A DNA stretch of 64,000 bases from Candidatus Daviesbacteria bacterium (lineage in GTDB: Bacteria; Patescibacteriota; Microgenomatia; Daviesbacterales; UBA10151): the NCBI GenBank assembly GCA_027451625.1, contig DAIDIY010000048.1, positions 26,917 through 90,916 on the forward strand. The letters are read 5' to 3'. Numbering within the stretch: the first letter of the stretch is position 1; every line of letters begins with the position of its first letter. Below are positions 9,324 to 13,550 of this stretch, piece by piece. Both the position numbers and the translations under genes were made by a program. Below the pieces are notes generated by a model. The model was not told where the DNA came from. It ran no database searches and was given only the letters and a program-made list of their open reading frames with translations.

Positions 9324-10331
9324 TCATATTTCACCATCAGGTAAATCATATTTTATCGTTAGCGCTGAAGCTACACTCTCTAAACTAGGACGATCACTAA
9401 CACACAGTATTTCAACCTCAGGACCAACACAATCTTCAACCATTCCTACTATTCTTCGAGAAGGATCAAAAATAACTAAGGTATTCACCCCTTGAGTTGA
9501 TAGTCCTTCCAAAACAGGCTTGTGATGCACTTGACTATCCAGTAAATCAGAAACTATTCTATAAATACCCTCTCTATTTTTTACTACCGGATTCAATCCT
9601 TGAGCCTCTCTAATAGGAGATAAAATTGTTCCTACGGGGTCATTTACAGAGTTGGGTAGAATTATTTGCGGTAATCTATCACGAAATCCGTCAGCTGCTT
9701 CCTTAACAAATCCTGTATGAATCGCCCAACCTATTCCACCAATTAAAATATGTTTACTTTTTTCAAAGTAATCTTTTAATGACAAAAGATTCCCTATAGG
9801 ACCACCCACGATACTTTGTTTAGGTGAATTCCAGTTAGCATATTCAACGTTTACTCCAGCATTTCTTGCTTTAACAATCCCATTTTCAACTACTTCTTTA
9901 GATAGTCCTATAATCGTCATAAGTCCAGTTCTAGGTTCTGCGGGAAGTTTAAGAAGCTCTTCTTGCCTTGCTTTCATTGCTAGTAAAGCTGATCTTAAAT
10001 CTATTGCTCCTGATGAGACTGCAGAACTTAGTTCTCCCATGCTTAAAGCTACATGGGTTTGTGGACGCCTTTCCAAAAGACGCGTTAAAGTTACCGCCAT
10101 ACCTACAGTCACAGCAACTAAGATAACCGGCTTAAACCAAGGTTTTTCTATTTCTTCACCCAATATACTCTTCGCTTGCTCAAGAGCTCTCCCAAATGAA
10201 GTATTCCTCGAAGAAAACAGAGATTCCATTCCGTCAACACCTGCGTTTTGACCCGGGAAATAATAAGCTACTTTTGATAGAGTTTTTTTAATATCCCCAA
10301 GATTTAATTGGTCTTCTTTTTCCAAAGACAT
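9324..10331 (-). CDS. fabD: [acyl-carrier-protein] S-malonyltransferase-like acyltransferase
   Basis: YFPGQNAGVDGM (FabD FPGQGSQ region), ALSMGELSS (GHSLGE nucleophile region with Ser kept) and VEYANWNSPKQSIVGGP (IANxNSPxQ). The start is trimmed to the internal Met because the longer ORF overlaps tRNA-Cys. Confidence 0.6.
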   Translation of the reverse strand: MSLEKEDQLNLGDIKKTLSKVAYYFPGQNAGVDGMESLFSSRNTSFGRALEQAKSILGEEIEKPWFKPVILVAVTVGMAVTLTRLLERRPQTHVALSMGELSSAVSSGAIDLRSALLAMKARQEELLKLPAEPRTGLMTIIGLSKEVVENGIVKARNAGVNVEYANWNSPKQSIVGGPIGNLLSLKDYFEKSKHILIGGIGWAIHTGFVKEAADGFRDRLPQIILPNSVNDPVGTILSPIREAQGLNPVVKNREGIYRIVSDLLDSQVHHKPVLEGLSTQGVNTLVIFDPSRRIVGMVEDCVGPEVEILCVSDRPSLESVASALTIKYDLPDGEI

Positions 10332-10543: not shown

Positions 10544-11215
10544 TTACGAAGCAACAGTATTTAAATATTGTCCGCATAGTCCAGGAACTCGAGCAATAAT
10601 AAATACTATTTTTCCTAGATCTGGACTCCAGCCGAGGGTACATAGAGCTACTGCGATTGCTCCGTCAATGTTGAGAGGTAAAGTCATATTTAAAGATGAA
10701 TCAATTTTATCTTTAAACTCTGAGACAAGTTTCACGAATTCATCACTAAGTCCAAAATCATTTATTTTTTCTATAATTAACATCGCTCGAGGATCTTTAT
10801 TTTTATATATTCGATGACCAAATCCAGGAAATCTTTTCCCTTCTTTAATATATCCTTCTACTAATTCTGAAATCTTTAAGCTCCCCATTTTAATTTGATA
10901 TAGAAGTTCCATTAGTTTTTCTTGAGCTCCTCCATGAATATCATTAATTTCCTCTATACCTGCAGCAATAGATTCTGAAATCGTTTTTCCCTCCCTTGCT
11001 TTTTCTATGACTTTTTTTGTGCTTGGAGTATTTGGACCATGATCGATAGATAGATTTAATATCAATTCAAATAATTTTTTTTCTTGAGGAGAGGGTTTGC
11101 GTTCACTTAAAAGTTCAAAAACAAGTTCAGGAAAAGACCTCTGCGGAGCTATTTGAAGTAAATCTTCATCTCCAAATAAAATATCAAGATCTCGATGTAT
11201 AACTGTTTTTGCCAT
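10544..11215 (-). CDS. citrate synthase C-terminal domain-like protein (citryl-CoA lyase-like)
   Basis: HGGAQE (citrate synthase HGGANE) and GFGHRIYKNKDPRA (GFGHRVYKxxDPRA, including the catalytic His and Asp). Only 223 aa, matching the C-terminal half of citrate synthase or the AclA tail. Confidence 0.6.
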   Translation of the reverse strand: MAKTVIHRDLDILFGDEDLLQIAPQRSFPELVFELLSERKPSPQEKKLFELILNLSIDHGPNTPSTKKVIEKAREGKTISESIAAGIEEINDIHGGAQEKLMELLYQIKMGSLKISELVEGYIKEGKRFPGFGHRIYKNKDPRAMLIIEKINDFGLSDEFVKLVSEFKDKIDSSLNMTLPLNIDGAIAVALCTLGWSPDLGKIVFIIARVPGLCGQYLNTVAS

Positions 11216-11244
11216 ACTTAAAAATTAGATTTATTCATTTTATT

Positions 11245-12138
11245 CTATTTTAAAACCTCCTCTACAAGTCCAACAATTTGATCAAATTCTCTGGCCACTC
11301 GAACTCCTGCTTGAGCTAGAACTTGACGTTTATATTCAGGATTTCCTCTATTACCTTCAATTATCGCTCCAGCATGACCAAACTGAACTTCTGAAGGTAG
11401 AGTCATAGTGAACTCTCCCCCTATAAATGCTATTATCGGTTTTTTGATTTTATCAAGTTTAACAAATTCTGCTACCCTCTCTTCATAAGTTCCCCCTAAC
11501 TCTCCAAACATGACAAAGCAATCTGTTTCTTTATCATCTTCTAAATCCAGCATTAGGTCAACGAAGTCGGAGCCTATAATTCTATCTCCCCCTATCCCTA
11601 TAGCCCAAGAGATCCCCTTACCTCTTTTTTTAAGCTGTAACGAGATTTCAGCAGCCATACTCCCAGATTTAGAAAGTACAGCTATACTTCCAGGTACAAA
11701 CATCTTTTGAGGATTTCCCCCTCCCATTAATCCCATCTTTAGTTTTCTAGAAGGAGAGATAAGCCCCGCGGTATTAGGTCCTATTATTTGAGCTCCTTTT
11801 AAACGTGCATAAGACACGATGTATGTAGTATCTTTAGTAGGAACCTTCTCTGCTTGAACTATGTGGAATTTGATGCCAGCATCGATCGCCTCAATAGTAG
11901 CGTTTTTAACAAAACTAGGGGGAACGAATTGAATTGATGCATCTACAAACCCAATTTTACTAATAGCCTCAGATACTGTATTAAAAACTGGAACACCATT
12001 GACTTCTAATCCCCCTTTACCTGGGGTCACTCCCGCAACAATATCAGTCCCATAATCCATCATCCATGGTAGAGCCCTTGCTCCTTCAGAGCCTGTCATT
12101 CCTTGACCTAAAATTCTTATTCCTGATTTTGGTAGCAT
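11245..12138 (-). CDS. succinyl-CoA synthetase alpha-subunit-like / ATP-citrate lyase AclA N-terminal-like CoA ligase
   Basis: GMTGSEGARA...GVTPGKGG CoA-binding motifs and a GHAGAII phosphohistidine loop. Confidence 0.75.
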   Translation of the reverse strand: MLPKSGIRILGQGMTGSEGARALPWMMDYGTDIVAGVTPGKGGLEVNGVPVFNTVSEAISKIGFVDASIQFVPPSFVKNATIEAIDAGIKFHIVQAEKVPTKDTTYIVSYARLKGAQIIGPNTAGLISPSRKLKMGLMGGGNPQKMFVPGSIAVLSKSGSMAAEISLQLKKRGKGISWAIGIGGDRIIGSDFVDLMLDLEDDKETDCFVMFGELGGTYEERVAEFVKLDKIKKPIIAFIGGEFTMTLPSEVQFGHAGAIIEGNRGNPEYKRQVLAQAGVRVAREFDQIVGLVEEVLK

Positions 12139-12210
12139 CTTTATATTCCTTAGTAAGTTAAAAAAAACTTATCTAATTTAGGTAATAAATTCTATTTGTC
12201 TTACCCTCAA

Positions 12211-13467
12211 TTACGAATCGATTATCTTTTTATATTTATTCACTAAATCTACCATAATTTTTGCCGACTGGGAAATTGTTGCTTCCTCTCCGTATACATA
12301 AAGTTGAAAATCTTTAACTTTTCTCAGCATATCAAAGGCTTCTTCTTCTCTTGGTCCTCCTCTTCGAATTAAGATTGGAAATTTAAACTTTTTATCCAAT
12401 TTTTTTTCTACCTCACGAAGTCCTTCTATTATTCCTAGTAAAGTTTCATAAATATCGGTAAAGTTAGCAGCTACAGTTCCAATAATCCATAATCCATGAA
12501 TATTTGGCTTAGATAAGACTATTTCTGTTAACTTTACAACCTTTTCTTTAGGAGGATTACCTGAATACTCAGTGAAATTAGCGGGTTTTCCTCCATATTC
12601 AATCAGAGCATCCATAGCTGTAAGTGATACTCCTCCTCCAGAGGATAAAATAGCTATATCTCCAGGGAGATCAAAATATGTTGAACCGGCAGTTCCGCGA
12701 TAATCGAGAAGATCAATTTGTTTGGCAGCAACCTCACTATTTGTGGGCTCATGTCCAGGAACTGAACGAGGAGGGAAATTCCACTCTTTATGCCTAAATC
12801 TAGCATCATCATCTATCTTAATCTTAGCATCCAAAGCTATCCATTCTCCGGTTTTGGTTATAACTAAAGGATTTATTTCTAAAAGTAAGCAATCGTTCTC
12901 AAAAAAAATATTTATTAATTTTTGAACAAGGATAAGAAAAGATTTTTTATTTTTATTAGTCAAAAAAAGATCTAAGTCATTTAGAAATTTAGATCTACTC
13001 TTATTCACAATTTCTGTATCCGTTAAACCTTTCTGATTTAGCTTATCCCAAACAACTTGCTGTTCTAAAATATTTATAGGATACATACTCTTCTCTCTCT
13101 CCTCTACCCCTGTTCCTCCTAATAAAGATAAAGTTAGTACAGGCAGTCGAACTAATGTATCGTAAGATATAGAGATATAATATTCTTTAGCAAAACCTAC
13201 AGCATCTTCAACGAGTACTTTATTTACCCTTTCACCATTGATCTTCTTTCCAAACAAATCTATTATTTCACCTGAAACATCTTCTTCTTTTAACACTTTA
13301 ATAATTCCTCCAGAGTTAGCCCTTTTACCTGATAAGACTTGAGCCTTCAAGACTATAGGAACTTTAAGTCTTACTGGTTGATTAAGATTCTCTATAACCT
13401 CAGATCTAGGAACTTTAATCCCATTGTTTCCAAGGATCTCCTTTCCCTCAAACTCATATAAAATCAT
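12211..13467 (-). CDS. succinyl-CoA synthetase beta-subunit-like / AclB-like ATP-grasp subunit
   Basis: N-terminal MILYEFEGKEIL...VLKAQVLSGKR resembles the SucC ATP-grasp N-terminus; 418 aa. Confidence 0.7.
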   Translation of the reverse strand: MILYEFEGKEILGNNGIKVPRSEVIENLNQPVRLKVPIVLKAQVLSGKRANSGGIIKVLKEEDVSGEIIDLFGKKINGERVNKVLVEDAVGFAKEYYISISYDTLVRLPVLTLSLLGGTGVEEREKSMYPINILEQQVVWDKLNQKGLTDTEIVNKSRSKFLNDLDLFLTNKNKKSFLILVQKLINIFFENDCLLLEINPLVITKTGEWIALDAKIKIDDDARFRHKEWNFPPRSVPGHEPTNSEVAAKQIDLLDYRGTAGSTYFDLPGDIAILSSGGGVSLTAMDALIEYGGKPANFTEYSGNPPKEKVVKLTEIVLSKPNIHGLWIIGTVAANFTDIYETLLGIIEGLREVEKKLDKKFKFPILIRRGGPREEEAFDMLRKVKDFQLYVYGEEATISQSAKIMVDLVNKYKKIIDS

Positions 13468-13550
13468 ACGATCTATTCTACCCTAAAACTGGTTATTTGA
13501 CAGCATAAATGTTTACAGTGGAGGCTAATGTAAGGTAAAATTACCGGTAA

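What the first reader, a model, noticed from the sequence alone, without database searches (positions are those of the whole stretch)
10544..13467. SucC-like, SucD-like and citrate-synthase-tail-like genes collinear with a split ATP-citrate lyase
Three adjacent minus-strand genes encode an ATP-grasp beta-like subunit (418 aa), a CoA-binding alpha-like subunit with the phosphohistidine GHAGAII loop (297 aa), and a 223-aa protein with citrate synthase catalytic motifs (HGGAQE, GFGHRIYKNKDPRA) but lacking the N-terminal half. This order reproduces AclB, then AclA N-domain, then the AclA citrate-synthase-like C-domain. It suggests a split ATP-citrate lyase, or a citryl-CoA synthetase plus citryl-CoA lyase pair as in Hydrogenobacter, rather than TCA-cycle succinyl-CoA synthetase. 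The adjacent FabD-like gene would fit cytosolic acetyl-CoA production for lipid synthesis. I cannot separate these options from sequence alone.
Basis: partly seen in the sequence, partly recalled or inferred. Interest (0 to 1): 0.5.

Follow-up and report, generated by a model that had tools for sequence, protein, structure and literature searches.

The report
Citryl-CoA synthetase plus short lyase operon
Three adjacent genes in this tiny-genome (Candidate Phyla Radiation) bacterium encode a two-enzyme, ATP-dependent citrate-splitting system of the Hydrogenobacter type, not succinyl-CoA synthetase plus a broken citrate synthase; the type is known, but it is unexpected in an organism of a group that lacks the citric acid cycle.

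Summary
Three co-directional minus-strand genes encode proteins of 418, 297 and 223 aa with the stated motifs.

All three belong to the citryl-CoA synthetase (CCS), citryl-CoA lyase (CCL) and ATP-citrate lyase (ACL) lineage, not to SucCD or citrate synthase.
- **Beta (418 aa):** it has the ACL-type citrate-binding domain (PF16114) where SucC has Ligase_CoA. It separates from succinyl-CoA synthetase (SCS) beta in 100% of bootstraps.
- **Alpha (297 aa):** it scores like SucD overall. It shares two insertions with H. thermophilus CcsB and groups with it (100%).
- **223-aa protein:** its best matches are H. thermophilus CCL by sequence (profile 169 bits against 91 for citrate synthase) and by predicted fold (TM 0.92). 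All catalytic His/His/Asp/Arg residues are invariant across the aligned relatives.

It is not a pseudogene. Hundreds of relatives of 218-246 aa exist in Microgenomates. The beta-alpha-ccl order is kept in every related locus with enough sequence.

Two features differ from the Aquificota system. The genes form one operon collinear with aclB-aclA. The lyase lacks the ~35-aa C-terminal tail.

The FabD/lipid link is not supported. That gene is a divergent orphan, sits behind a tRNA-Cys gene, and is absent from all 40 related loci.

A 2022 preprint already placed CPR sequences with CCS/CCL. I rate this a new member of a known kind, of moderate interest.

The parts
12211..13467 (-). Large (beta, CcsA/AclB-type) subunit of a citryl-CoA synthetase, 418 aa. 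It has an ATP-grasp domain and an ACL-type citrate-binding domain. A ~28-aa insert at about residues 142-169 is specific to this lineage.
   Evidence: Pfam: ATP-grasp_2 and PF16114 Citrate_bind (86.5 bits), with no Ligase_CoA hit. In the control, E. coli and Thermus SucC hit Ligase_CoA only, while CcsA and AclB hit Citrate_bind only. PDB profile scores: CcsA 6hxq_B 255 bits, AclB 204, SCS-beta 167. NJ tree: SCS against the rest, 100%. The GGG277-279 and EYS302G motifs match the ACLY catalytic-centre residues G281-283 and S308. Insert.
11245..12138 (-). Small (alpha, CcsB-type) subunit, 297 aa. It has a CoA-binding domain and the phosphohistidine loop PSEVQFGH255AGAIIEG.
   Evidence: Pfam: CoA_binding, Succ_CoA_lig and Ligase_CoA. 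NCBIfam sucCoAalpha scores 285.6, below its 353.2 cut-off. PDB profile: SCS-alpha 296 and CcsB 276, both above ACL at 173. Two insertions are shared with CcsB and absent from all three SCS-alpha reference sequences. NJ split CPR+CcsB against SCS-alpha: 100%.
10544..11215 (-). Short citryl-CoA lyase (CCL-type citrate-synthase-homology protein), 223 aa. Catalytic and binding residues are His59, His94, His134, Arg135, Arg143, Asp184 and Arg209. It lacks the ~35-aa C-terminal tail of Aquificota CCL.
   Evidence: NCBIfam: best hits are citryl-CoA lyase subfamilies (129.8 bits, below the 212 cut-off); the best citrate synthase model scores 73. PDB profile: 6hxp CCL 169.5 bits, citrate synthase 91, ACL CSH domain 80. 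AF2 model pLDDT 94; Foldseek 6hxp TMq 0.92. NJ: CCL+ACL-CSH against citrate synthase, 99.5%. Invariant residues. Missing tail.
13475..13503 (-). Promoter-like site (CTGTCA-17-TAGAAT) just upstream of the beta start codon. This is a weak candidate only.
   Evidence: Consensus scan, 9 of 12 matches. The number of sites in the region is not above the shuffled expectation. This is inference, not evidence of function.

Best explanation
The three genes form one operon that encodes a two-enzyme, ATP-dependent citrate-cleaving system of the CCS/CCL type.

**Proposed mechanism** (inferred by homology to H. thermophilus CCS/CCL and to ACLY):
1. The beta subunit binds Mg-ATP in its ATP-grasp domain.
2. 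The phosphate passes to His255 of the alpha subunit.
3. The phosphohistidine loop swings to the citrate site, formed by the beta C-terminal citrate-binding domain and alpha.
4. Citryl-phosphate forms and is attacked by CoA held on the alpha Rossmann domain, giving (3S)-citryl-CoA.
5. The free 223-aa lyase cleaves citryl-CoA by a retro-Claisen reaction into acetyl-CoA and oxaloacetate, using the citrate-synthase-type His/His/Asp set (His94, His134, Asp184).

The net reaction is citrate + ATP + CoA <-> acetyl-CoA + oxaloacetate + ADP + Pi. It is near equilibrium, so the direction in vivo is not fixed by sequence.

**Likely role.** The host is a Daviesbacteria/Microgenomates-type CPR bacterium. 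It belongs to a group that lacks the TCA cycle and fatty-acid synthesis. I therefore take the most likely role to be use of scavenged citrate as a source of acetyl-CoA and a C4 acid for fermentation.

**Shown:** homology, domain types, conserved catalytic residues, fold, operon conservation and taxonomic spread.
**Inferred:** substrate, direction and physiological role.
For: - **Domains.** Domain architecture with a positive and negative control for PF16114 against PF00549.
- **Solved structures.** The best matches for beta and for the lyase are the H. thermophilus CCS large subunit and CCL.
- **Shared indels.** Beta shares the linker insertion with CcsA and AclB that SCS-beta lacks. Alpha shares two insertions with CcsB.
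- **Trees.** Beta against SCS 100%; alpha+CcsB against SCS-alpha 100%; lyase+CCL+ACL-CSH against citrate synthase 99.5%.
- **Fold.** The AF2 model of the lyase (pLDDT 94) superposes on 6hxp with TMq 0.92, on ACLY CCL modules with 0.83-0.88, and on citrate synthases with 0.66-0.76.
- **Invariant residues.** The phosphohistidine, GGG/EYSG and His/His/Asp/Arg residues are invariant or nearly so in 23-28-sequence alignments.
- **Synteny.** The beta-alpha-ccl order is kept in all related loci with enough sequence. Only these three genes are conserved there. Alpha and ccl often abut or overlap, which suggests translational coupling.
- **Annotation.** Some public sources already name relatives 'citryl-CoA lyase' or 'ATP citrate lyase citrate-binding domain-containing protein'.
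- **Literature.** A preprint places CPR sequences with CCS/CCL.
Against: - No enzymology exists for any CPR member.
- All three proteins score below the curated NCBIfam cut-offs of every named family, so they form a separate lineage.
- The alpha subunit is as similar to SCS-alpha as to CcsB by bit score and more identical to SCS-alpha (46.7% against 39.4%).
- The lyase lacks the C-terminal tail present in Aquificota CCL, ACL and citrate synthase. From my own knowledge of citrate synthase, the corresponding segment there supplies an arginine (pig Arg421') to the neighbouring subunit's active site. Substrate binding may therefore differ.
- No citrate transporter, aconitase, malate dehydrogenase or other partner is linked in any locus. 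The physiological role is conjecture.
- I could not inventory the rest of the genome.
Confidence: 0.75

Rival explanations
1. The chemistry is the same but runs physiologically in reverse. The pair would act as an ATP-yielding citrate synthase (acetyl-CoA + oxaloacetate + ADP + Pi -> citrate + CoA + ATP), conserving thioester energy by substrate-level phosphorylation in a fermenter that lives on such reactions.
For: The ACL/CCS-CCL reaction is close to equilibrium (established thermodynamics, my own knowledge). [quoted passage not shown] CPR bacteria are described as making ATP only by substrate-level phosphorylation and as lacking a TCA cycle (PMC7143001). The lyase keeps the citrate-synthase-type HGGA histidine that the ACL CSH domains have lost (RFGGA).
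Against: There is no linked source of oxaloacetate and no sink for citrate. ADP-forming acetyl-CoA synthetase already provides this ATP in Microgenomates without needing oxaloacetate. All characterised CCS/CCL and ACL systems work in the cleavage direction in vivo.
Confidence: 0.13
2. The architecture is the same but the substrate differs. The ligase would activate a different hydroxy-, di- or tricarboxylate (for example 2-methylcitrate or malate), and the short lyase would cleave the matching acyl-CoA.
For: All three proteins fall below every curated family cut-off. The lyase lacks the C-terminal tail that in citrate synthase contributes to oxaloacetate/citrate binding (plus my own knowledge). 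The citrate synthase superfamily includes 2-methylcitrate synthases. The beta family sits within a very large uncharacterised radiation: 286 clusters at 50% identity with E <= 1e-30.
Against: The counterparts of the ACLY catalytic-centre residues (GGG, EYSG, Glu97-alpha, Ser158/Gly159-alpha, His255-alpha) are invariant or nearly so, as are the citrate-synthase oxaloacetate-binding His and Arg residues of the lyase. The Pfam citrate-binding domain scores higher for the CPR beta (84-86 bits) than for the authentic H. thermophilus CcsA fragment (residues 1-377; 49 bits).
Confidence: 0.1
3. The genes are ordinary TCA-cycle succinyl-CoA synthetase (SucCD) next to a truncated, decaying citrate synthase gene. 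A related alternative is a fused aclA broken by a sequencing or assembly error.
For: NCBIfam's top named hits for beta and alpha are the succinate-CoA ligase subunits. Alpha is 44-47% identical to SCS-alpha. Several sources annotate relatives as 'citrate synthase'.
Against: The SucC and SucD scores are far below cut-off (194.7 against 375.6; 285.6 against 353.2). Beta lacks Ligase_CoA and has Citrate_bind. The trees give 100% support against SCS membership. The ~222-aa length, the stop codons and the separate alpha and ccl genes recur in 35+ independent assemblies with invariant catalytic residues. No TCA gene occurs among the ~54 ORFs of the window that were scanned.
Confidence: 0.02

Closest known systems
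Citryl-CoA synthetase (CcsA/CcsB) plus citryl-CoA lyase (Ccl) of Hydrogenobacter thermophilus and other Aquificota (PDB 6HXQ, 6HXP)
   Same: Three separate polypeptides with the same domain content. It is the best solved-structure match for beta (255 bits) and for the lyase (169.5 bits, TMq 0.92). Alpha shares two insertions with CcsB. The lyase keeps the HGGA, GxGHR and NxDG catalytic motifs.
   Different: Sequence identity is only 29-39%. Here the genes form one beta-alpha-ccl operon, whereas ccl stands alone in Hydrogenobacter hydrogenophilus and Persephonella hydrogeniphila. The lyase is ~222 aa instead of 257-260 aa because the C-terminal tail (EKPFSKRLDEE...EYTG..PRELP) is missing. In a small NJ tree beta groups with ACL beta rather than with CcsA (96.5%). 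The host is a non-autotrophic CPR bacterium rather than an rTCA autotroph.
Two-subunit bacterial/archaeal ATP-citrate lyase (AclB/AclA of Chlorobium limicola, 6HXJ; Methanosaeta concilii, 6HXI)
   Same: The gene order is collinear: beta, then alpha, then the citrate-synthase-homology module. The beta motifs EYSG and ANFTD(I/V) are of the ACL type. PF16114 is present. The lyase fold matches ACL CCL modules with TMq 0.83-0.88.
   Different: Alpha and the lyase are separate genes in every locus examined. The lyase keeps the His of HGGA, which ACL CSH domains have replaced (RFGGA). Alpha is much closer to SCS-alpha and CcsB (276-296 bits) than to the ACL alpha domain (164-173 bits).
Succinyl-CoA synthetase SucCD plus citrate synthase (GltA)
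   Same: Same superfamilies and folds: phosphohistidine mechanism, GHAGA loop, ATP-grasp domain, and a citrate-synthase-type catalytic triad in the lyase.
   Different: The beta C-terminal domain is of the citrate-binding type, not Ligase_CoA. Beta and alpha carry insertions that SCS lacks. The lyase lacks the N-terminal ~140 profile positions and the C-terminal arm of citrate synthase. Trees separate all three from SCS and citrate synthase with 99.5-100% support.

Membership tests
Citryl-CoA synthetase / ACL acyl-CoA-synthetase-homology lineage (CcsA-AclB type beta) | The C-terminal domain of the beta subunit is the ACL citrate-binding domain (PF16114) rather than Ligase_CoA (PF00549). | tested here: met
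   PF16114 scores 86.5 bits with no PF00549 hit. In the control, E. coli and Thermus SucC hit PF00549 only, while CcsA and AclB hit PF16114 only.
Citryl-CoA synthetase / ACL acyl-CoA-synthetase-homology lineage (CcsA-AclB type beta) | Branches with CcsA/AclB and outside SucC. | tested here: met
   NJ with 200 bootstraps: SCS against the rest 100%; CPR clade 99.5%. Profile scores: CcsA 255, AclB 204, SCS-beta 167 bits. The position within the CCS/ACL clade is not robustly resolved.
Citryl-CoA synthetase small subunit (CcsB type alpha) | Has a phosphohistidine loop and a CoA-binding domain, and is closer to CcsB than to SucD. | tested here: inconclusive
   The GH255AGA loop and the CoA_binding domain are present. 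Two insertions are shared with CcsB, and the split against three SCS-alpha sequences has 100% bootstrap. However, bit scores and percent identity slightly favour SCS-alpha (296 against 276 bits; 46.7% against 39.4%). Only four references were available and no ACL alpha was in the tree.
[quoted passage not shown] | A stand-alone citrate-synthase-homology protein that lacks the N-terminal part of citrate synthase and retains the catalytic His/His/Asp and the Arg residues. | tested here: met
   PF00285 is matched at profile positions 142-346 only. H59, H94, H134, R135, R143, D184 and R209 are invariant in 28 sequences. The fold matches 6hxp with TMq 0.92. The protein clusters with CCL and ACL-CSH against citrate synthase at 99.5%.
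[quoted passage not shown] | Reaches the curated score of an NCBIfam citryl-CoA lyase model (PRK06224 subfamilies). | tested here: not met
   The best model is NF004869 at 129.8 bits against a cut-off of 212. The others are also below cut-off. It is therefore a separate CCL-like lineage, not a member of those curated subfamilies.
[quoted passage not shown] | Full-length architecture (~258 aa) including the C-terminal tail seen in Aquificota CCL. | tested here: not met
   The CPR family ends 14 residues after Arg209. Aquificota CCLs of 257-260 aa carry ~35 more residues.
CCS/CCL system | Enzymatic activity: citrate + ATP + CoA -> citryl-CoA, then acetyl-CoA + oxaloacetate. | not testable with these tools
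   This needs purified proteins and assays.
ATP-citrate lyase (AclBA) | The alpha (CoA-binding/phosphohistidine) region and the citrate-synthase-homology module are fused in one polypeptide. | tested here: not met
   The genes are separate here, with a stop codon and a 29-nt spacer. They are also separate in all related loci.
Succinyl-CoA synthetase SucCD | Reaches the curated NCBIfam scores for sucC/sucD, and beta has the Ligase_CoA domain. | tested here: not met
   194.7 against 375.55 and 285.6 against 353.2. Beta has no PF00549 hit.
FabD (malonyl-CoA:ACP transacylase), for the neighbouring gene 9324-10331 | Reaches the FabD equivalog score and sits in a fatty-acid-synthesis gene context. 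| tested here: not met
   TIGR00128 scores 76.5 against 260.9. The best PDB MCAT match is 55.7 bits. No FAS genes are in the window. There is no homologue at E <= 1e-5 in 5.8 billion proteins.

The most novel reading that the evidence does not exclude
The Microgenomates operon may be a surviving 'unfused ATP-citrate lyase'. On this reading it is a lineage on the stem leading to ACL: beta is sister to AclB, the genes are already collinear and translationally coupled, but alpha and the lyase are not yet fused and the lyase is a minimal form. It would document the CCS/CCL-to-ACL transition. In TCA-less fermenters it might run reversibly, possibly as an ATP-conserving citrate synthase.
Probability: 0.2. 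Interest if true: 0.6.

Novelty: new member of a known kind. Interest (0 to 1): 0.35.

Why it matters
There are three reasons.

1. **Annotation and metabolic reconstruction.**
   - Relatives of these genes are variously labelled 'citrate synthase', 'citrate/2-methylcitrate synthase' or 'hypothetical protein'.
   - One CPR study counts CPR 'gltA' as a partial TCA-cycle step that complements partner organisms (PMC11608272).
   - Recognising the block as a self-contained citrate-cleavage module changes that reading: it links citrate to acetyl-CoA and oxaloacetate and is not a TCA-cycle fragment.

2. **Evolution.** This is an operon-encoded, collinear but unfused version with a minimal lyase. That makes it a useful comparison point for the proposed route from CCS/CCL to ACL and to citrate synthase.

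3. **Mechanism.**
   - Whether the citrate-synthase-homology module of ACLY is catalytic or allosteric is disputed (PMC10115795).
   - A naturally separate small lyase that lacks the C-terminal arm is a simple system in which to test what that module does.

None of this is surprising enough to overturn current views.

Tried and rejected
- **Truncated pseudogene, rejected.** The ~222-aa length is conserved and the catalytic residues are invariant. There is no space for upstream remnants.
- **Bona fide SucCD, rejected.**
- **FabD functional linkage, rejected.** tblastn of the FabD-like protein against 45 loci found nothing. Clustering of all flanking ORFs found no conserved neighbour beyond the three genes; the next most frequent were a class I aminoacyl-tRNA synthetase, a tRNA-binding protein and FtsH.
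- **Conserved metabolic partner or transporter.** I looked for one and found none.
- **Placing the beta family among 150 representative clusters.** The NJ tree shows a large unresolved radiation containing CcsA, ACL and the CPR clade. It is not robust enough to fix the sister group.
- **Names of neighbouring clusters.** These were mostly unavailable.
- **Encoding-contig look-ups.** The window's own proteins returned nothing, so the source record name was not recovered.
- **Literature on CPR and citryl-CoA.** Searches found one preprint only. The primary structural paper on CCL/ACL (Verschueren et al. 2019) is not in the held library. The role of the C-terminal tail therefore rests on my own knowledge of citrate synthase.
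- **Residue-level alignment to human ACLY.** It could not be displayed. The G281-283 and S308 mapping is inferred from the alignment coordinates and from the Methanosaeta alignment.
- **Promoter and terminator scan.** It gave nothing above the shuffled expectation.

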